Source: Shigella phage Tf
Sequence record: OR980947
Strand: one strand, 5' to 3'
DNA: 64,000 nt
The position numbers and the translations under genes are program-made. Below are positions 1 to 39,463 of this stretch, piece by piece; within the stretch, counting starts at the first letter, position 1, and each line of letters begins with the position of its first letter. The notes below the pieces were generated by a model. It saw only the letters and a list, made by a program, of their open reading frames with translations, searched no databases and was not told the origin of the DNA.

Positions 1-74
1 GGGCTTATAGTTCGATAAAGTAAGCCCCAGATAAAGAGCTTTACCACTAAATCCTTAAACTAGGAGATTCAAAA
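1..74 (+). repeat. early-gene upstream module copy a (hairpin + ccactaaat + ccttaaactaggagattcaaa)
   Basis: shares ccactaaat-ccttaaactaggagattcaaa with copies at 931, 1699 and 2288. Confidence 0.6.
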
Positions 75-617
75 ATGAAATGCTTTCACGGTACTACTCA
101 AGAAAACTTCACCAACCTGATTAATAACGGTGATAAGCCATCAGGTGCATGGAATTGTTCGGATATGGATGGGAATTTTTACGTTTATCCGGAAAATAAA
201 ATCTATGGCAACGATGCGGAAGAGATAGCATCTGAAGGTATCCAGCAAGCGTTAGGCAATGCCGCTATCACCGCAGCTTTCCAGATGAAAACTCAAAACA
301 TTGTTATCTTGGAACTTGATATTCCAGAAGATGACCTAAATGATGATTATTCTTGTGATAATATGGCTGGCGTAGCAAGTTTTACAGAATACTTCGATTT
401 AAATTGGATTAAAAAGGTTTACATCACTGAATTTAATGCTATGTTTTCACCATTTTGTCTGCCTTCACTGGATAACCCGAATTTGAACTATCTTGATGAG
501 TCTCTGGAACTTCTCGCTAAAAGTGTTCAACAGGTGGACAGTATTCAGGTTTTTTGTGACATCATGGACACACTGACAGAAAACATTACAGAAGAGGATT
601 TAAAGAGCTTTTTCTAA
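75..617 (+). CDS. hypothetical early protein (180 aa)
   Basis: ORF-track ORF; AGGAGA RBS 8 nt upstream; preceded by repeated early module; no motif recognised. Confidence 0.5.
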   Translation: MKCFHGTTQENFTNLINNGDKPSGAWNCSDMDGNFYVYPENKIYGNDAEEIASEGIQQALGNAAITAAFQMKTQNIVILELDIPEDDLNDDYSCDNMAGVASFTEYFDLNWIKKVYITEFNAMFSPFCLPSLDNPNLNYLDESLELLAKSVQQVDSIQVFCDIMDTLTENITEEDLKSFF

Positions 618-649
618 AAACCTATGCAATCACCTTATAAACACTGATT

Positions 650-670
650 AGCCCCTTCTAGGGGCTTTTA
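650..670 (+). terminator. rho-independent terminator-like hairpin
   Basis: agccccttctaggggct followed by ttt. Confidence 0.45.
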
Positions 671-683
671 GGAGGCTTAAATC

Positions 684-917
684 ATGCTTACAACCGTTTA
701 CCTCATCCTTTCCATTTGTAACGGTCATTCATGTGATTTTAAAGGGCTTGAGGAGTTTACAGGGAGTAAAGAAAACGCTATTCAGGTTTGTCAGATAGCA
801 AGACAAGACTACCCCGCCAGTGATGATATAAAATGTTACTTTAAGACAGAAGACAGCGACGGCGTTTATTTTGACAGTGTTGACGGGCAAGATGAAATTA
901 TCATAGAAAAAGACTAG
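684..917 (+). CDS. hypothetical protein (77 aa)
   Basis: ORF with AGGAGG RBS directly after terminator-like hairpin. Confidence 0.45.
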   Translation: MLTTVYLILSICNGHSCDFKGLEEFTGSKENAIQVCQIARQDYPASDDIKCYFKTEDSDGVYFDSVDGQDEIIIEKD

Positions 918-930
918 ACAAGCCTGATAG

Positions 931-1006
931 AAATCTGTAAATTGTCAATTAACGGGGAGGGAATGACCTTCCCCACTAAGTAAAGTCCTAAACTGGAGTT
1001 TTCACA
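931..1006 (+). repeat. early-gene upstream module copy b
   Basis: aaatctgtaaattgtcaattaacggggagggaatgaccttccccactaagtaaagtcctaaactggag; near-identical to copy at 2288. Confidence 0.65.
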
Positions 1007-1153
1007 ATGTCAAATGCAGTTGAAACGGTTTTTAACAATCCGGTATTTTCAGAGATGACTTTCTCGTTTATCATGATGTTACTTGTTAAAACCATGAAAA
1101 AGGCCGAAAAATTACACTCAAAGAAAAAAGCTATTGCAAACCGTTTTAAGTAA
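1007..1153 (+). CDS. small hydrophobic protein (48 aa), not in ORF track
   Basis: ATG at 1007 preceded by the same conserved taaactggag module as neighbouring genes; translation MSNAVETVFNNPVFSEMTFSFIMMLLVKTMKK... has a hydrophobic core. Confidence 0.35.
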   Translation: MSNAVETVFNNPVFSEMTFSFIMMLLVKTMKKAEKLHSKKKAIANRFK

Positions 1154-1168
1154 AGCTATAGTATCAAT

Positions 1169-1203
1169 CAAGCCCACTTCCTAAACTGGAGATTCAAAAA
1201 AAA
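1169..1203 (+). repeat. early-gene upstream module copy c (3' part only)
   Basis: cccacttcctaaactggagattcaaaaa immediately before ATG 1204. Confidence 0.55.
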
Positions 1204-1545
1204 ATGGCTTATGTAACCGTAGTAACCGATAAGGTGGATTCATCTTGGTCAACTCAAGTAAGTGACAAGATGTCACCTATGCAGTGCCTAAAATACTTTG
1301 AACAGTGGAATAAAGGCGAGGACACAAGCCCCTTTCAAGTGATGCAGATTATCCATGTAAGTAAGGAAGGGACTAAAACGGTTTTAAATAGTGAGTACTA
1401 TGCAACCAGATTTGAGACGAGATGTAAAACGATGAAACTATTACGTGAATCCGGCTATACTCATATTGCCGCGCTAATCTGGGATGATTTGCTAAAAAGT
1501 CAGCGTATCAGTTACGTAAAACCTGAAAAAATATTCATCAGTTAA
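1204..1545 (+). CDS. hypothetical early protein (113 aa)
   Basis: ORF; conserved upstream module ctaaactggagattcaaa then ATG. Confidence 0.5.
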   Translation: MAYVTVVTDKVDSSWSTQVSDKMSPMQCLKYFEQWNKGEDTSPFQVMQIIHVSKEGTKTVLNSEYYATRFETRCKTMKLLRESGYTHIAALIWDDLLKSQRISYVKPEKIFIS

Positions 1546-1577
1546 TCAATAACTTACAAAAAACTTTCAAAAAAGTG

Positions 1578-1606
1578 TTGACAATGCCCCTTGACATTGG
1601 TAATGT
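1578..1606 (+). promoter_or_regulatory. sigma70-like promoter (TTGACA-17-TAATGT)
   Basis: aaaagtgTTGACAatgccccttgacattggTAATGT; consensus -35 with second TTGACA inside spacer. Confidence 0.5.
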
Positions 1607-1698
1607 TGTTCGAGGGGGTTTATCTTAAAGGGATTCACTTAAAAGATTCTTTATAGATAAGCTTAAAAAATTGCTTGCAATCAGATATCAAAACAAGT

Positions 1699-1766
1699 AA
1701 ATTACTAATCAACGGGAGGTCATTACCTCCCCACTAAATAAAAGCCCTTAAACTAGGAGATTCAAA
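1699..1766 (+). repeat. early-gene upstream module copy d
   Basis: aatcaacgggaggtcattacctccccactaaataaaagcccttaaactaggagattcaaa; hairpin arms changed in a compensatory way. Confidence 0.65.
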
Positions 1767-2297
1767 GTGAACAAGTTCAAAGCCATCAATTACATTCGTT
1801 CAAATGCTGTAATGTCTAAGCCTGTTAAAGATACCTATGAATTTCGTTGTAATGGGGTACACTTTGCAACCATTACCAAATCAGAAAACGGGGTTTATTA
1901 CGTCCATCGTCGTAATGTTGCAACCGTTGTAGTCCGTCACTTTATGCAAGCTGTAGCGGAACTATTACCGCTATTCTTAGAAATTTACTTGGATGAGTGT
2001 AAAAACGTTCACAATCACGTTAAAAACCTTTTAAATAGTTATAAAATGGCTTATGAGCGTTCTATCAAGTCATTGAACAAGTTTTATAAAGCCCCTGTAA
2101 ACACTGTTTCAATGGCTTACAATGTAAGCGGTGAGTTGGTTAGTCTCTTCGAAGTGGAAGAAATCGAACTATATAACTCACGTCCTAGCGGTTACTCTAA
2201 GACACTGGGAGAAGGCTTATCTTTCAATATCAAGAACTTAGAAAAAACTTTAAAAGATATTGAAAAAGATATTGACGAGACAATAAAAAATCTGTAA
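1767..2297 (+). CDS. hypothetical early protein (176 aa, GTG start)
   Basis: ORF; conserved upstream module with AGGAGA RBS; sigma70-like promoter at 1578. Confidence 0.5.
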   Translation: MNKFKAINYIRSNAVMSKPVKDTYEFRCNGVHFATITKSENGVYYVHRRNVATVVVRHFMQAVAELLPLFLEIYLDECKNVHNHVKNLLNSYKMAYERSIKSLNKFYKAPVNTVSMAYNVSGELVSLFEVEEIELYNSRPSGYSKTLGEGLSFNIKNLEKTLKDIEKDIDETIKNL

Positions 2298-2377
2298 ATT
2301 GTCAATCAACGGGGAGGGAATGACCTTCCCCACTAAATAAAACCCTTAAACTACTTCCTAAACTGGAGATTCAAAAA
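2288..2377 (+). repeat. early-gene upstream module copy e
   Basis: aaatctgtaaattgtcaatcaacggggagggaatgaccttccccactaaataaaacccttaaactacttcctaaactggagattcaaa. Confidence 0.65.
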
Positions 2378-2626
2378 ATGGCAACTATCCGCGCAATTGT
2401 AAATTCTTATGGCTGCTACACTCTGGACGTTAAATTTGATATAGGCGGGACTGATGAGTGTTTCGAACTGGTGAAGACGGTCATTAAACAAGTTATCCCA
2501 GATTATAACCCTACTGATGACTTCTGGAAAGATGCTGTAAAAGAGGCATTAAACGACGAGCATCACTATCATTACTGGGGTGACTTGATTGTTTCCCTGT
2601 ACTACAATAAACAAGGTTACAACTAA
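2378..2626 (+). CDS. hypothetical early protein (82 aa)
   Basis: ORF; conserved upstream module; followed by two hairpins and a T-run. Confidence 0.5.
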   Translation: MATIRAIVNSYGCYTLDVKFDIGGTDECFELVKTVIKQVIPDYNPTDDFWKDAVKEALNDEHHYHYWGDLIVSLYYNKQGYN

Positions 2627-2666
2627 TCGACGCAACGGGGCTAAATAGCCCCAGATACCTTTATAC

Positions 2667-2693
2667 AGCCCCTTTCCCATAGGGGCTTTTTTA
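2667..2693 (+). terminator. rho-independent terminator ending the rightward early block
   Basis: agcccctttcccataggggc + tttttt; preceded by second hairpin ggggctaaatagcccc at 2637-2652. Confidence 0.65.
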
Positions 2694-2699
2694 CGTCTT

Positions 2700-3400
2700 A
2701 TCAAATCCTATACAATCCTTTTCCTTTCCTTTCCAGAATCTATCCCACTGATTCGATAGAATCTATCTCGTACCTTAAAAGCAATAACTCTATAGCTTAC
2801 TCTATAGCCCCTTATCAAATCAACTTAAATAAAAGCCAATAACCCCAGAAAGGGGATGGCCCATTAATTGGTATTGTTACCAATCCCTAAAACGCTCTAT
2901 AAAGCTCTATAACAGCCTTATCAACCTAACTTAAGGGATTGCATTACCTCACCCTTAAAAGCCCTTTATAAAGCTTCTGAGAGCCTTAAAAGAATCTTAT
3001 AAGGGTGTAAGCTTATAGGCTGATTAGTATCTTGTGAATGGTTAAACAATCCCTTGATAGTCACTAAAAAGTATGTTATAGGGGCTTAAAAGTTGCTTAA
3101 AAGTAGCTTAAAAGTTACTTCAAAGTTACGTAAATGCTAGCCCCCTTAACATTTTCTTAACAATTTCTTAACAAACCCTACATAGTTATGCTTGTTAGGA
3201 ACTTGTCAGCACCTTGTTAAATCTTTGTTAAAACCATGTAAAAACCTTGTAAGAACCTTCGACATAGCCTTAAAAGCTCCTGTAAAGCCCTATAAAGAGC
3301 TATCCATACAGTTGAGGGGTAAATACTAGGGAGAGCCTTAAAAGAGCTTACAAGGGGCTATAGAGAGCTTTTAAGAGGTATGTTTAAGAAGTCACTAAGA
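2700..3400. repeat. array of CTTAAAAG / CTATAAAG / CTTATAAG-type short repeats in ORF-free region
   Basis: many copies, e.g. ttgcttaaaagtagcttaaaagttacttcaaag (11-bp phasing), gccttaaaagctcctgtaaagccctataaagagc. Confidence 0.7.
2865..2888. promoter_or_regulatory. palindrome-containing site taattggtattgttaccaatccct (copy 1), operator-like
   Basis: inverted repeat ttggta..taccaa; exact 24-nt duplicate at 3516-3539. Confidence 0.45.
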
Positions 3401-4260
3401 AGCAAAGGGAACGATAAGACCAGAGATAGTGACCATGTTAATAGCTTGTTAAAAAGATTAAACACTTGTTAGAGACTTGTTAATTATCTTAACAAAATAA
3501 CTCCTAAAAATTAACTAATTGGTATTGTTACCAATCCCTGTTAGCTCTTGTTAGTCATCTGTTAAGAAACTATAAAGACCATGTATCGACTGTTAAGAAC
3601 TTGTTACACCCTTGTTAGTTCTGTTAAGAATCTGTTAAGACCTTTGGAGAGATGTTAAGAGCTTGTGAGAACTGTTAAGAGATTGTTAAGGATATTTTAA
3701 AATTTTGCAAAGGGGATGTTAAGGAGCTGTTAAGGGCTACCAAGCAGATATACATCCTAATCAGATATTTTCAGTTCCTTCAAAGACCCTAAAAAATGAC
3801 TTGACAGTCCTATTTTATAAAAATTTTAAGATTCTGAATAATTACCTATACAGCCTTTTAAAAATACAGGTAGAAACAGGCTTATAAGATACCTTGTTAG
3901 TACCGTGTTAGACCTTGTGAGATAAGGTCTGTAAAGATATTCCTGTTAAGTTTGTTAAAACAGTCTATATAGAGGCTTAGTAAACCTAGTGAACACCTAT
4001 AGAGAGTGTCATAGGTAACATAATGGGTTACTGTTAAGTAACACAGTTAACCTAGAGATTAAGAGGTGTATAGAGGCTTCTAAGAGCGTATAGAGGGATG
4101 GTTAAGGTGATTGTATAGGTTGTTAAGAAGGCTTGTTAGAAGAGTGTTTAGAAGGGCTATACAGAGGGGGCTATTAAGACCACTAGATAGTTACTAAGAT
4201 ACTATATAGTACTATATAACTATATAGAGAGTAAGATTAAGAAGGTTGTTAAGAAGGATA
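3130..4260. repeat. array of (C)TTGTTA / TGTTAAG(A) repeats at about one helical turn spacing
   Basis: roughly 35-40 copies, e.g. cttgttacacccttgttagttctgttaagaatctgttaagacc and gatgttaagagcttgtgagaactgttaagagattgttaagg. Confidence 0.75.
3516..3539. promoter_or_regulatory. palindrome-containing site taattggtattgttaccaatccct (copy 2)
   Basis: exact duplicate of 2865-2888. Confidence 0.45.
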
Positions 4261-4344
4261 GATATTTTATTCACATATGATGGTGACCCAGAGGTTGGGA
4301 CAACCGATAAAATTTTATAAAAATATAAATTTCGTAAATTTTAC

Positions 4345-4374
4345 TCAATAAAAAGCCCCCGATTAAGGAGGCTC
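4345..4374 (-). terminator. rho-independent terminator (minus strand)
   Basis: minus-strand agcctccttaatcgggggct followed by ttttt. Confidence 0.5.
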
Positions 4375-4384
4375 TTAAGATATT

Positions 4385-5062
4385 TTAAATCAGTGTTTCC
4401 AGAACTGTTTTTAGGGATGACTTGGTTGTCTGATAAAAATGAGTAAATCCATTATTGTTATCAAATACCTGCATCATGATATCATCTCCCTTGATTGGGT
4501 AAACTCGGATATCATAGTGAAAACCATTAAAGACACAAGAACCACTACAGAATGCTCTAAAGTCACTTGCTGAGATATACTCTTCATGACCTGTGATTTT
4601 TATACAAACACCTTTACTCGGCCTCTTAGGGTTGATATCTTCCATCACAGACATACTTTGTCCACCAAGAGATACCATAGTGACCACTTTACGATTCTGC
4701 TGTTTAACATACATCTCAAGTTTCTTCAAAGTATCTTCATAGAACGGATAAGACTTCTTGACAAAGATACCATCAAGTGGTTCTTTACAATCTTCCATAC
4801 GTTCATTATAAAGCTTGCTAGTAATACTATTAAGAGAGAGCTTCTCATCATCTGTCAAATATGTGTTGATATCATCCAGACTAAGTACCAGATACTTTCT
4901 TTCAAGTTCAAACTTTTTCATATCTATTAAGTCCTGAAAACATTTCTTAGTAATTGCTTCCCATTCTTCGGAGTTCTTCTTCTTCCTCCTCTTCAGATGG
5001 GGAACCATATCTTTCAAGTTCATCCAATTCATCCTGCGAAGGTGTCCCGTAAGATTCTTCAT
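4385..5062 (-). CDS. hypothetical protein (start uncertain)
   Basis: ORF-track ORF; terminator-like hairpin just downstream on minus strand. Confidence 0.4.
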   Translation of the reverse strand: MKNLTGHLRRMNWMNLKDMVPHLKRRKKKNSEEWEAITKKCFQDLIDMKKFELERKYLVLSLDDINTYLTDDEKLSLNSITSKLYNERMEDCKEPLDGIFVKKSYPFYEDTLKKLEMYVKQQNRKVVTMVSLGGQSMSVMEDINPKRPSKGVCIKITGHEEYISASDFRAFCSGSCVFNGFHYDIRVYPIKGDDIMMQVFDNNNGFTHFYQTTKSSLKTVLETLI

Positions 5063-6864: not shown

Positions 6865-7446
6865 TCAAGAGTATTTTTTAGGCAGTAATGCACTGCGCTT
6901 GTTACTCTCTTCACTCAATAGTGCGATAAATTCATCACCTTTACCCTTCCACGGGCTGAATGTCGGAATGTGCTCTCTGATAGCATCAATCACTGTTTTA
7001 AGGGCGTTGTTCTTTAACCACCAATCAGATACCGCTGAAGCTACAATGTAATAAGCACCGTCATCTGTGAAGATTGGCTCAGAGATACATGGTGAAATCA
7101 TAGTGGTAATGATAGAACCATTATTCATGTAGTATGTTCTTTTTTCAACCTTATCAAGAAGTTTATGAAGGTCTGCAAAGAGACTTACCACATCTTTATG
7201 GTCAATATCTTTTTCAAGATTTGCTCTGTATTTCAGTAGTGCAGCATCAACCTCTTTATCATTGAATTTGAAGTATTGGACTTCTTCATTCACGCATACA
7301 CTGATGTTGTTAGTGTTTATCGTCAATTTGCACAGTTTGACTGGAGAATTGATGTTGGTCTGAAAAAGTGCTACACAGCCTTCTACATTTCCAAAATGTT
7401 TGACTAATGTAACTTCTGGTTGGATATGCTCATGTTCTTCTGACAT
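6865..7446 (-). CDS. hypothetical protein (193 aa)
   Basis: ORF-track ORF. Confidence 0.45.
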   Translation of the reverse strand: MSEEHEHIQPEVTLVKHFGNVEGCVALFQTNINSPVKLCKLTINTNNISVCVNEEVQYFKFNDKEVDAALLKYRANLEKDIDHKDVVSLFADLHKLLDKVEKRTYYMNNGSIITTMISPCISEPIFTDDGAYYIVASAVSDWWLKNNALKTVIDAIREHIPTFSPWKGKGDEFIALLSEESNKRSALLPKKYS

Positions 7447-39417: not shown

Positions 39418-39427
39418 TTTCTTTACA

Positions 39428-39447
39428 GGGGCTTTGTAGCCCCTTTT
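39428..39447 (+). terminator. rho-independent terminator between the two tail fibre genes
   Basis: ggggctttgtagcccc + tttt. Confidence 0.65.
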
Positions 39448-39463
39448 AAGAGGAAAATTTATA

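What the first reader, a model, noticed from the sequence alone, without database searches (positions are those of the whole stretch)
1..2400. Every early gene is preceded by the same stem-loop plus RBS cassette
At least five rightward early ORFs (starts 75, 1007, 1204, 1767, 2378) are preceded by a shared module: a GC-rich hairpin (ggggagg-gaatgac-cttcccc, or gggaggt-catt-acctccc with compensatory changes), then ccactaa(a/g)taaa, then (c)ccttaaact(a/g)gag(a/t)ttcaaa and the start codon. Two copies (931-1006 and 2288-2377) also share aaatctgtaaattgtcaat upstream. This resembles the repeated early stem-loop/promoter cassettes in other virulent phages that are thought to drive gene shuffling and uniform early expression. 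The hairpin lacks a U-tract, so it is more likely a processing or stability element than a terminator.
Basis: seen in the sequence. Interest (0 to 1): 0.6.

Follow-up and report, generated by a model that had tools for sequence, protein, structure and literature searches.

The report
Promoter–hairpin–RBS gene cassettes, Felix O1-type phage
The repeated module is real: in this Felix O1-like phage most small early genes carry their own ~90-base plug-in unit (host-type promoter, GC hairpin, standard leader and ribosome site), the same kind of cassette known as PeSL in T4-like phages, and relatives show genes being gained, lost and swapped at these units.

Summary
The window is a Felixounavirus (Felix O1-like myovirus). 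Positions 1-2700 are the right end of a cluster of small rightward genes of unknown function. The repeat is real but not uniform. All five named starts share the leader/RBS (CT(T)AAACT(A)GGAG, 7-12 nt, start). Only three (1007, 1767, 2378) have the GGGGAGG-type hairpin. The copy before 75 has a different hairpin, the copy before 1204 has none, and the gene at 684 lacks the module. In type A, a -35 (TTGACA-like), 17 bp and TAAATT lie exactly 10 nt before the hairpin. In type B, an invariant TTTACA, 17 bp and TAnnnT are present, with the hairpin spanning spacer and -10. Across about 28 related contigs and 250-290 GenBank phages (Felixounavirus, Mooglevirus, Suspvirus, Erwinia Kolesnikvirus) both hairpins show compensatory changes. 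G·U pairs make them sense-strand RNA structures. Gene content, gene order and crossover points differ exactly at the cassettes. This matches the architecture of PeSLs (promoter-early stem-loops) of T4-type phages, without sequence similarity. I found no paper making this link for Felix O1-like phages. Promoter activity and the hairpin's role are inferred, not measured.

The parts
1..74 (+). Type B cassette before gene 75-617. Its 5' end, including the -35 TTTACA, is cut off by the window edge. Hairpin 1-28 (GGGCTTAT...GTAAGCCCC), predicted -10 TAAAGT 16-21 inside the hairpin, leader AGATAAAGAGCTTTACCACTAAATC 29-53, RBS block CTTAAACTAGGAG 54-66, ATG 75.
   Evidence: The full form with TTTACA is seen in relatives. 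Stem covariation.
75..617 (+). Gene of 180 aa (family F3), unknown function.
   Evidence: PHROG 3303, unknown function. No Pfam match.
650..683 (+). Not a cassette. Terminator-like hairpin AGCCCC-TTCTA-GGGGCT with TTTT (650-669) running into an AGGAGG ribosome site (670-675) for gene 684-917.
   Evidence: The homologous site is annotated as a rho-independent terminator in wV8.
684..917 (+). Gene of 77 aa, unknown function. Its TAG stop (915-917) forms the first three bases of the next cassette's -35.
915..1006 (+). Type A cassette: -35 TAGACA 915-920, 17-bp spacer, -10 TAAATT 938-943, GTCAATTAAC 944-953, hairpin 954-974, leader ACTAAGTAAAGTC 975-987, RBS CTAAACTGGAG 988-998, ATG 1007.
1007..1153 (+). 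Gene of 48 aa (family F15). It is an optional gene: present in some relatives (SP116-type) and absent from Felix O1, fjerdesal and KhF2.
1134..1203 (+). Degenerate cassette without a hairpin: -35 TTGCAA 1134-1139, 17 bp, -10 TATAGT 1157-1162, remnant 'ATCAATCAAGCCCACTTC' (3' arm of a small GGGC..GCCC hairpin whose 5' arm is lost), RBS CTAAACTGGAG 1181-1191, ATG 1204.
1204..1545 (+). Gene of 113 aa (family F4, Felix O1 ORF21).
   Evidence: ORF21 was maximally expressed at 5 min in Felix O1 RT-PCR.
1675..1766 (+). Type A cassette: -35 TTGCAA 1675-1680, 17 bp, -10 TAAATT 1698-1703, ACTAATCAAC 1704-1713, hairpin GGGAGGTCATTACCTCCCC 1714-1732, leader 1733-1746, RBS CTTAAACTAGGAG 1747-1759, GTG 1767.
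1767..2297 (+). Gene of 176 aa (family F7, Felix O1 ORF22). Its last codons contain the next promoter, and its TAA stop (2295-2297) is the start of the -10 TAAATT.
   Evidence: ORF22 was early (5 min) in Felix O1.
2272..2377 (+). Type A cassette with a chimeric long leader: -35 TTGACG 2272-2277, 17 bp, -10 TAAATT 2295-2300, GTCAATCAAC, hairpin 2311-2331, leader 2332-2357 holding a partial second RBS block (CCCTTAAACT 2343-2352) joined to ACTTC, RBS CTAAACTGGAG 2358-2368, ATG 2378.
   Evidence: Positions 2353-2378 are 26/26 identical to 1176-1201.
2378..2626 (+). Gene of 82 aa (family F6, Felix O1 ORF23), the last gene of the cluster.
2637..2659 (+). Cassette-type hairpin with neither promoter nor RBS, placed after the last gene: CAAC-GGGGCTAAATAGCCCC-AGATACC.
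   Evidence: Conserved in KhF2.
2667..2693 (+). Canonical intrinsic terminator (7-bp GC stem followed by TTTTT) that closes the cluster.
   Evidence: Corresponds to t23 of Felix O1.

Best explanation
These are composite regulatory cassettes of the PeSL type, each about 70-105 bp long. Each packs four things between the stop codon of one small gene and the start codon of the next. (1) A host sigma-70-type promoter, often built partly from the last codons and the stop codon of the upstream gene. (2) A G-first/C-last stem-loop that forms in the sense RNA. (3) An A/U-rich leader. (4) A standard ribosome-binding block at a fixed distance from the start codon. Inferred working: on infection, host RNA polymerase starts at every cassette, so each small early gene is expressed on its own. 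The hairpin always lies 12-57 nt after the upstream stop codon. There it acts on RNA coming from upstream as a partial terminator (attenuator) and/or as a barrier that protects the 3' end. In type A cassettes the hairpin also sits about 2-4 nt from the predicted 5' end of the cassette's own mRNA, where a stem-loop is known to protect against RNase E-dependent decay. Because the same ~70 nt recur 10-18 times within about 6 kb, the cassettes also serve as sites of homologous recombination. They delete, insert, swap and reorder the genes between them and homogenise each other. What is shown: repeat structure, hexamer regularity, stem covariation, strand asymmetry, and cassette-bounded gene differences. 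What is inferred: promoter activity, transcription start sites, and what the hairpin does.
For: Promoter. In 181 type A instances (55 distinct hairpins; some contigs duplicate GenBank phages) a TAnnnT hexamer ends 10 nt (170), 11 nt (10) or 9 nt (1) before the hairpin. The hexamer exactly 17 nt further upstream is TTGCAA, TTGACA, TTGACG, TAGACA, TTGACT or TTGATT in 178/181, although it lies in the tails of different, unrelated upstream genes. Hexamers and spacing are kept between genera where the coding tail has diverged. In 151 type B instances TTTACA is invariant. TAnnnT follows at 17-18 nt, with only the T, A and last T conserved. The same holds in Erwinia phages. A-rich tracts precede the -35. 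Hairpin. Type B stem: 97.9% of cells paired, 4 of 9 pairs changed on both sides, covariation 0.388 vs 0.149 in shuffles (0/500), and at most 57% paired when slid. Erwinia copies change GGGG/CCCC to GGTG/CACC. Type A stem: 86.9% paired, 4 of 7 pairs changed on both sides. G·U pairs give 8 bp on the + strand but 5 bp on the - strand. 3'-of-gene role. The type B hairpin overlaps its own -10 and predicted start site, so it can be present only in RNA from upstream. A cassette-type hairpin without promoter or RBS follows the last gene (2637-2652). Recombination. The same gene family is preceded by different cassette types in different phages. Optional genes (F11, F12, F14-F20) sit in cassette-bounded slots, and F11/F14 order is inverted in L114 vs L002. 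At least three different crossover points lie inside the cassette at F7-F6 junctions that lack F12, and the L060 junction lacking F7 has its crossover in 'atcaaaa'. Leaders are homogenised within genomes. Timing. Felix O1 ORFs 16, 20, 21 and 22 peak at 5 min. Architecture matches the PeSL description.
Against: No transcript data exist for any Felix O1-like phage in the searched literature, so promoters and start sites are predictions. A generic promoter scan of 1-4500 is not significantly enriched (18 sites vs 13.4 ± 4.0 in shuffles), and it missed the 1675-1703 site; the case rests on positional regularity and conservation. The hairpins have no U-tract, so efficient intrinsic termination by E. 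coli RNA polymerase is doubtful. Felix O1 RT-PCR places ORFs 17, 19 and 23 at 25 min rather than 5 min. Instance counts include duplicate genomes and related sequences, so shuffle statistics overstate independence. The type A stem register was set with RNAfold, which biases towards pairing.
Confidence: 0.75

Rival explanations
1. The hairpins are true transcription terminators, as the PeSL authors proposed. Each gene is then a closed monocistronic unit, promoter to hairpin, and termination is the hairpin's main function.
For: Each hairpin sits 12-57 nt after the upstream stop codon. The type B hairpin can only be in upstream transcripts. An RB49 PeSL stem-loop reduced downstream lacZ expression as strongly as rrnB T1. 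A hairpin also follows the last gene of the cluster.
Against: No U-tract follows any cassette hairpin; the downstream sequence is ACTAAATAAA or AGATAAAGAG. The same phage uses canonical U-tract terminators where the cluster ends (2667-2693) and at 650-669. The cassette-type hairpin after the last gene is itself followed by such a terminator, which suggests it does not terminate efficiently alone.
Confidence: 0.3
2. The cluster is one long early transcript, the module is only 'hairpin + RBS', and the hairpins mark processing sites or stabilise the processed mRNAs. There are no internal promoters.
For: The hairpins lack U-tracts. A/U-rich single-stranded leaders follow each hairpin, which resembles RNase E-type contexts. 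The first cassette of the cluster, after terminator t13, has a strong TTGACT/TTGACA promoter that could drive the whole cluster.
Against: It does not explain several regularities. TTTACA is invariant. TAnnnT hexamers keep only the T, A and last T. The spacing is exactly 17 bp. TTGnnn is maintained inside the coding tails of unrelated upstream genes and across genera.
Confidence: 0.12
3. The hairpin works at the DNA level. It could be part of a hairpin-type promoter read by a phage RNA polymerase (as in N4 early promoters), or a cruciform or recognition site for a site-specific recombinase or homing nuclease that moves the gene cassettes.
For: The type B hairpin overlaps the promoter. The PeSL authors left site-specific recombination open. 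Cassette-bounded gene mobility is observed.
Against: The stems rely on G·U pairs that exist only on the sense strand: 8 bp on + vs 5 bp on -. A cruciform needs both strands. Crossover points are scattered along the cassette rather than at one site, as expected for homologous exchange. Felix O1 is reported to encode no RNA polymerase. The hexamers fit sigma-70 spacing.
Confidence: 0.04
4. The repeats are leftovers of recent tandem gene duplication with no function of their own.
For: Repeats in a compact cluster could in principle come from duplication.
Against: The flanked genes fall into 24 unrelated families. The cassettes are conserved across four Ounavirinae genera, with compensatory stem changes and conserved hexamers, while the loops and coding flanks diverge.
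Confidence: 0.01

Closest known systems
PeSLs (promoter-early stem-loops) of T4-type phages RB49/phi1, T4/PST and KVP40/nt-1 (Arbiol et al. 2010, PMC2839356; Comeau et al. 2014, PMC4122927)
   Same: They share a ~100-bp composite unit between small ORFan genes. The unit holds the upstream stop codon in an A/T-rich stretch, a sigma-70-like -35/-10, a polyG...polyC stem-loop with G·T pairs, then a Shine-Dalgarno site and start codon. The stem-loop position relative to the promoter defines subclasses; here it lies between -35 and -10 overlapping the -10 (type B) or downstream of the -10 (type A). Density is comparable (8 PeSLs per ~5 kb in RB49; 10-18 per ~6 kb here). Differences between relatives are gene insertions, deletions and replacements, with crossovers between the -10 and the ATG.
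   Different: The host lineage differs (Ounavirinae, ~87-kb genomes, not T4-like). There is no detectable sequence similarity: blastn with either cassette returned organism names dominated by enterobacterial and Erwinia phages, and every record listed was ~84-90 kb or a partial Salmonella record. In type A the hairpin lies after, not just before, the predicted start site. The leader/RBS is far more standardised. Promoter and terminator activity and mini-circle formation were measured for PeSLs but not here.
5'-terminal stem-loops that stabilise mRNA (ompA 5' UTR; phage T7 gene 10 leader GGGAGACC...) - from general knowledge
   Same: Type A cassettes place a stable GC hairpin about 2-4 nt from the predicted 5' end of the mRNA. 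This is the geometry known to hinder 5'-end-dependent RNase E attack.
   Different: The start site is only predicted. Type B cassettes cannot give their own mRNA such a hairpin, so this cannot be the common function.
Direct repeats already listed for Felix O1 and wV8 (Whichard et al. 2010, PMC3185647; DR_1-DR_9 features in GenBank EU877232)
   Same: These are the same sequences. The Felix O1 57-bp repeat CTTTACATGGGGCTTAAAAGTCTGTAAAGTAAGCCCCAGATAAAGAGCTTTACCACT is the type B cassette, and the 39-bp repeat TTGACACTGGTTTTTAGATAGATTAAATTACACATCAAC is the type A promoter half.
   Different: They were reported only as direct repeats, with no function assigned and no promoter called there. The paper states that how transcription is organised is not known.
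Start-associated sequences (SAS) of Cluster K mycobacteriophages - from general knowledge
   Same: A short conserved block lies immediately upstream of many start codons within one phage genome.
   Different: SAS are 13-bp translation-associated motifs without a promoter-hairpin composite, and they are not tied to cassette-bounded gene shuffling.

Membership tests
PeSL-type composite cassettes | Sigma-70-like -35 and -10 hexamers at canonical spacing inside the repeated motif | tested here: met
   Type A: TTGnnn/TAGACA, 17 bp, TAnnnT in 178/181 instances. Type B: TTTACA, 17-18 bp, TAnnnT in essentially all of 151 instances. Window sites are given. This is sequence-level evidence only.
PeSL-type composite cassettes | A/T-rich stretch with the upstream stop codon just before or within the promoter | tested here: met
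   A-tracts lie upstream of the -35. The stop codon sits in the -35 (TAGACA), in the -10 (TAAATT), or 4-5 nt before TTTACA.
PeSL-type composite cassettes | Stable stem-loop, often polyG...polyC with G·T pairs, at a variable position relative to the promoter | tested here: met
   GGGG...CCCC stems of -6 to -17 kcal/mol. Two positions occur. Covariation is shown, and G·U-dependent strand asymmetry.
PeSL-type composite cassettes | Shine-Dalgarno site and start codon at the 3' end of the motif | tested here: met
   GGAG/AGGAG lies 7-12 nt before the start in all cassettes.
PeSL-type composite cassettes | Concentrated in a plastic region of small genes of unknown function; insertions, deletions and replacements between relatives are bounded by the motifs | tested here: met
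   Gene-order table. Junction sequences with different crossover points. Genes have no Pfam match and fall in PHROGs of unknown function. Within the window the motifs occur only at 1-2700.
PeSL-type composite cassettes | Measured promoter activity and measured attenuation or termination by the stem-loop | not testable with these tools
   Needs reporter fusions or transcript mapping. No such data were found for Felix O1-like phages.
PeSL-type composite cassettes | Formation of excised mini-circles by recombination between neighbouring cassettes | not testable with these tools
   Needs inverse PCR on infected cells or virions.
PeSL-type composite cassettes | Sequence homology to the T4-type PeSLs (common descent) | tested here: not met
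   blastn (word 11) with either cassette against 50,697 phage records returned organism names dominated by enterobacterial and Erwinia phages, and every record listed was ~84-90 kb or a partial Salmonella record. The similarity is in architecture, not in sequence.
Canonical intrinsic (rho-independent) terminators | GC-rich hairpin immediately followed by a U-tract | tested here: not met
   The cassette hairpins have 1-2 T in the next 8 nt and are not picked up by the terminator scan, unlike 2667-2693. The minus-strand 'terminator' annotations in KhF2 and wV8 lie where no minus-strand gene exists.
Known RNA families (Rfam 15) | Match to a curated covariance model | tested here: not met
   No relevant match at E ≤ 1 in 1-4500.

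The most novel reading that the evidence does not exclude
The standard leader may be more than a good ribosome site. It may contain a small conserved operator: a 3-4-bp mini-hairpin in which a CCU-type anti-SD pairs with the Shine-Dalgarno bases. The forms seen are CC-UAAACU-GG, CCU-UAAACU-AGG and, in Erwinia phages, CCUU-AUA-AAGG, CCUC-AAA-GAGG and CCU-UAAAC-AGG. It is shared by all 10-18 cassette genes of a genome and homogenised within genomes. It could be the handle by which one phage- or host-encoded RNA-binding protein or nuclease switches the whole early gene set off (or on) together. That would be a regulon-wide post-transcriptional switch comparable in logic to T4 RegA or RegB, but with a structured target.
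Probability: 0.15. Interest if true: 0.6.

Novelty: new member of a known kind. Interest (0 to 1): 0.4.

Why it matters
The result gives a concrete, testable transcription map for the early region of Felix O1-type phages, which are widely used for Salmonella typing and biocontrol. The genome paper stated that their transcription pattern was not understood. It shows that the 'promoter + stem-loop + RBS' gene-cassette design, with the gene shuffling it allows, is not peculiar to T4-like phages. It recurs, apparently independently, across a second subfamily (Felixounavirus, Mooglevirus, Suspvirus, Kolesnikvirus). Practically, the cassette boundaries mark where accessory early genes can be removed or inserted when engineering these phages; these are likely host-takeover or anti-defence genes, all of unknown function. 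They also explain much of the gene-content variation among the roughly 250-290 sequenced relatives. Finally, existing GenBank annotations of these hairpins as minus-strand terminators are probably wrong.

Tried and rejected
1. An Rfam scan of 1-4500 at E ≤ 1 gave only two chance-level hits outside the modules.
2. Pfam found nothing for the six proteins, and PHROGs gave only families of unknown function, so gene function gave no help.
3. A loose viral-contig scan (ATCAAC N17-23 ACTAAATAAA) returned mostly chance matches. The specific 17-mer worked.
4. The MAFFT alignment of whole type B hairpins (A1) put a gap in the 3' arm of the 28-nt subfamily, which would have broken the pair register. I therefore counted pairs on arm-anchored constructs with the loop replaced by AAAA (A2, A3), and I state this as a manipulation.
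5. I considered an alternative -10 for type B (the TAAAGT just upstream of TTTACA, which would put the hairpin at the 5' end as in type A). I rejected it because no -35 lies 16-18 nt upstream, and because that hexamer is not conserved in Felix O1 ORF17's cassette or in Erwinia phages, whereas TTTACA is invariant.
6. An N4-type hairpin promoter or DNA cruciform was rejected on strand asymmetry and the absence of a phage RNA polymerase.
7. I tried to place the 608-bp terminal repeats reported for UAB_Phi87 relative to the non-coding region, but the GenBank record is not opened at the physical ends, so I dropped this.
8. The 'scar' in the leader before 2378 is not unique to this genome; radambza-type relatives have a similar long chimeric leader.
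9. The predicted probability that SD guanines are paired is higher in cassette leaders than in 56 other genes of the window (0.77 vs 0.54). The control value is already high and the cassettes are not independent, so I treat this only as a hint.
10. Literature searches for transcript mapping in Felix O1-like phages, or for any PeSL-Felix link, found nothing.

Full report
WHAT THE WINDOW IS. Megablast of positions 1-4200 finds 258 phage records, almost all Felixounavirus (Felix O1-like myoviruses of Escherichia, Salmonella and Shigella). The best matches are about 89% identical. Positions 1-2700 correspond to the right end of the rightward cluster of small hypothetical genes that Felix O1 numbers roughly ORF14-23. 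The cluster continues to the left of the window. It is closed by a canonical terminator at 2667-2693. A ~1.7-kb non-coding, repeat-rich stretch follows, and then leftward genes.

CHECK OF THE OBSERVATION. The repeats are real and far beyond chance.
- Positions 53-73 and 1746-1766 are 21/21 identical.
- Positions 1176-1201 and 2353-2378 are 26/26 identical.
- Positions 931-992 and 2288-2349 are 92% identical over 62 nt.
- The motifs occur nowhere else in the 64 kb.

All five named starts share the block CT(T)AAACT(A)GGAG, 7-12 nt, start codon. The module is nevertheless not uniform:
- Three copies (before 1007, 1767 and 2378) have the GGGGAGG/GGGAGGT hairpin followed by ACTAA(A/G)TAAA.
- The copy before 75 has a different hairpin (GGGCTTA...TAAGCCCC, cut by the window edge) and a different leader.
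- The copy before 1204 has no hairpin.
- The gene at 684 has no module at all. It has a U-tract hairpin and an AGGAGG site.

'Every early gene' is therefore too strong.

ANATOMY. Reading the copies together with those of relatives shows that each module contains a sigma-70-type promoter.

Type A has this order:
- -35 (TAGACA 915-920; TTGCAA 1675-1680; TTGACG 2272-2277);
- exactly 17 bp;
- -10 TAAATT (938-943; 1698-1703; 2295-2300);
- 10 nt ending in (A/T)TCAAC;
- the hairpin, then a 13-26-nt A-rich leader, the RBS block and the start codon.

The hairpin-less copy before 1204 has TTGCAA, 17 bp and TATAGT (1134-1162). It also carries the remnant of a small GGGC..GCCC hairpin whose 5' arm has been lost.

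Type B is the copy before 75, with more copies upstream in relatives. It reads (A)AAGTAC-TTTACA-N-GGGGYTTA...TAAGCCCC-AGATAAAGAGCTTTACCACTAAATC-RBS. A TAnnnT hexamer (TAAAGT at 16-21 in the window) lies 17 nt after TTTACA, inside the hairpin. The promoter halves are often made of the last codons of the upstream gene. The TAA stop of gene 1767-2297 is the first three bases of TAAATT, and the TAG stop of gene 684-917 starts TAGACA.

COMPARATIVE EVIDENCE. I collected the cluster from six GenBank phages and about 28 IMG/VR contigs of 51-94 kb. Some of these duplicate GenBank genomes, so numbers of distinct sequences are more meaningful than instance counts.
- Type A: 181 instances and 55 distinct hairpins. 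TAnnnT ends 10 nt (170), 11 nt (10) or 9 nt (1) before the hairpin. The hexamer 17 nt upstream is TTGCAA 51, TTGACA 48, TTGACG 24, TAGACA 22, TTGACT 22 and TTGATT 11.
- Type B: 151 instances and 56 distinct hairpins. TTTACA is invariant. The -10 position reads TAAAGT, TAAGAT, TATCTT, TAGTAT, TATGAT, TACAGT and others, so only T, A and the last T are fixed. This is the signature of a -10 element.
- Hexamers and spacing persist in Mooglevirus, where the upstream coding tails have diverged, and in Erwinia Kolesnikvirus.
- By blastn the type A cassette is in 251 phage records (1225 places). The type B cassette is in 288 records (1534 places), including 29 Erwinia phages and SUSP2. The organism tallies are dominated by enterobacterial and Erwinia phage names, and every record listed was ~84-90 kb or a partial Salmonella record.

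THE HAIRPINS ARE SELECTED STRUCTURES IN THE SENSE RNA. For type B I anchored the two arms from their ends and replaced the loop with AAAA. This avoids a MAFFT gap that breaks the register. On 21 distinct arm pairs:
- 97.9% of cells are paired;
- 4 of 9 pairs change on both sides (U-A↔A-U, A-U↔U-A, and C-G/A-U/U-A/U·G);
- the covariation score is 0.388 against 0.149 ± 0.024 in shuffles (0/500);
- pairing is at most 57% when the partner is slid.

Erwinia copies replace GGGG/CCCC by GGTG/CACC. For type A the register was set by RNAfold, which is a bias. There, 86.9% of cells are paired and 4 of 7 pairs change on both sides (G-C/A-U/G·U/U-A; A-U/G-C/C-G). The score is 0.335 against 0.176 (0/500). 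The commonest stems contain G·U pairs. They therefore form 8 bp on the + strand but only 5 bp on the - strand. This argues for an RNA structure in the sense transcript and against a DNA cruciform. None of the cassette hairpins is followed by a U-tract.

WHAT THE HAIRPIN DOES (INFERENCE). The type B hairpin overlaps its own -10 and predicted start site, so it can be present only in RNA that starts further upstream. A cassette-type hairpin with neither promoter nor RBS follows the last gene (2637-2652, GGGGCTAAATAGCCCC then AGATACC). All hairpins begin 12-19 nt (type B) or 13-57 nt (type A) after the upstream stop codon. The common denominator is therefore a 3'-of-gene RNA element. It could be an attenuator or partial terminator, as the PeSL authors proposed and measured for one RB49 element. 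It could also be a barrier against 3' exonucleases, possibly after cleavage in the A/U-rich leader.

In type A the same hairpin also lies about 2-4 nt from the predicted 5' end of its own mRNA. That is the geometry known to protect mRNAs from 5'-end-dependent decay (general knowledge: the ompA and T7 gene 10 leaders). The missing U-tract, together with the canonical terminator placed right after the last hairpin, makes me doubt efficient termination. I cannot decide between attenuation and stabilisation from sequence.

THE CASSETTES ARE RECOMBINATION MODULES. I clustered the genes that follow cassettes into 24 families. This gives a common backbone: F13-F9-F10-F8-F5-(F16)-F1-F2-(F11/F14)-F3-[684-type gene]-(F15 / F18 / F17+F19)-F4-(F20)-F7-(F12)-F6, with optional genes in cassette-bounded slots.
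- The same gene is preceded by different cassette types in different phages. F3 follows B, A or a small-hairpin type. F4 follows A, B or a hairpin-less cassette. F9, F11, F14 and F15 follow A or B.
- F11 and F14 occur in either order (L002 vs L114) while the cassette order A-B-B stays the same.
- Junctions where F7 is followed directly by F6 (F12 absent) have different crossover points. In Felix O1 the crossover is at TAAATT. In L137 it lies between CAAC and the hairpin. In the window and radambza-type phages it is in the leader/RBS, leaving a partial second RBS block (2343-2352).
- In L060 F7 is absent, with a crossover in the shared 'atcaaaa'.
- Leaders are homogenised within genomes: CCAACAATC|CTAAACTGGAGAATC in both cassette types of Moogle-like genomes, AACAAAGTC|...ATTCTAAAATG five times in SP116, and GCCCACTTC four times in L167. 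This points to gene conversion among cassettes.

In the window itself, the 48-aa gene 1007-1153 is one such optional insert.

COMPARISON WITH WHAT IS KNOWN. The published description of PeSLs in RB49/phi1 lists these features:
- the upstream stop codon in an A/T-rich stretch;
- sigma-70-like -35 and -10 hexamers;
- a polyG/polyC stem-loop with G·T pairs, most often between -35 and -10 or overlapping the -10, sometimes downstream of the -10;
- a Shine-Dalgarno site and ATG at the 3' end;
- about 100 bp in length and eight copies per ~5 kb;
- flanking of ORFans, with crossovers between the -10 and the ATG.

This fits feature by feature. The cassettes are not sequence-related to T4-type PeSLs. 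In type A the hairpin lies after the predicted start. The leader/RBS is unusually uniform.

The Felix O1 genome paper lists the same sequences as 57-bp and 39-bp direct repeats without assigning a function. It says the organisation of transcription is unknown. wV8's GenBank record marks them as DR_1-DR_9. KhF2 and wV8 annotate some hairpins as minus-strand terminators, which is unlikely because there are no minus-strand genes there. I found no paper linking PeSLs to Felix O1-like phages and no transcript mapping for them. Felix O1 RT-PCR places ORFs 16, 20, 21 and 22 at 5 min and ORFs 17, 19 and 23 at 25 min.

A SMALLER, UNEXPLAINED REGULARITY. The two RBS variants CTAAACTGGAG and CTTAAACTAGGAG differ by a T insertion and an A insertion. 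These are perfectly coupled: there are 0 mixed forms among about 380 instances. Both variants keep a mini-hairpin, CC(U)-UAAACU-(A)GG, that pairs part of the Shine-Dalgarno site. It appears in every fold. Erwinia phage cassettes have CCUU-AUA-AAGG, CCUC-AAA-GAGG and CCU-UAAAC-AGG at the same place. The two insertions are only 6 nt apart, so linkage alone could explain the coupling within Felixounavirus. The Erwinia variants make a selected anti-SD/SD stem more likely. This underlies the 'novel case'.

VERDICT. The interpretation as PeSL-like early cassettes is right in kind, but it missed the promoter. The system is a new member, in Ounavirinae, of a known kind of element. Confidence in the cassette architecture and its role in gene shuffling is high. 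Confidence in promoter activity is good but sequence-based. The hairpin's mechanism remains open between attenuation, 3' protection and (for type A) 5' protection.

Noticed in passing
window 2700-4380: A ~1.7-kb stretch with no convincing ORF lies between the rightward cluster and the leftward genes. It is packed with short repeats at 10-11-nt and ~20-nt spacing (CTTAAAAG, CTTGTTAA, CTGTTAAG, CTATAAAG). It is conserved in relatives, where parts are annotated as repeat_region. It looks like an array of protein-binding sites (an origin, a packaging site or the genome ends?). I tried to relate it to the 608-bp terminal repeats reported for UAB_Phi87 and failed.
   Followed up: partly
window 2865-2888 and 3516-3539: An exact 24-nt repeat, TAATTGGTATTGTTACCAATCCCT, occurs twice, 651 nt apart. 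It contains an inverted repeat TTGGTA..TACCAA.
   Followed up: no
window 54-66, 988-998, 1181-1191, 1747-1759, 2358-2368; L170 (Erwinia phage Rouille) 2900-8750: The ribosome-site block forms a 3-4-bp mini-hairpin that pairs a CCU-type sequence with the Shine-Dalgarno bases. The T and A insertions that distinguish the two variants are perfectly coupled (0 mixed in ~380). Erwinia phages have CCUU/AAGG and CCUC/GAGG versions.
   Followed up: partly
window 1578-1618: The intergenic region before the 1675-1766 cassette contains a second promoter-like site, TTGACA-17-TAATGT (1578-1606). It lies inside a C-first/G-last hairpin (CCCCTTG...CGAGGGG, about 1587-1617) followed by GTTTATCTT. This is the reverse polarity of the cassette hairpins. 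It is conserved in relatives.
   Followed up: no
window 1767: The 176-aa gene starts with GTG here, whereas Felix O1, KhF2, fjerdesal and others have ATG at the same position.
   Followed up: no
window 39418-39450: The sequence TTTACA-GGGGCTTTGTAGCCCC-TTTTAAGAGG lies far from the cluster. It has the same opening (CTTTACAgGGGGCT) as a type B cassette, but with a short loop and a T-run, and without the leader/RBS.
   Followed up: no
L002 (KhF2) 31-51, 896-916, 2454-2474, 3613-3633; L124 (wV8) 7093-7113: Public records annotate the cassette hairpins as rho-independent terminators on the minus strand. No minus-strand genes lie there, and the stems are weaker on that strand. This is probably an artefact of automatic terminator prediction.
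   Followed up: partly
(search tallies): One record whose organism name starts with 'Staphylococcus' (and one 'Campylobacter') matches these enterobacterial phage sequences. They are probably mislabelled or contaminated records. I did not inspect them.
   Followed up: no
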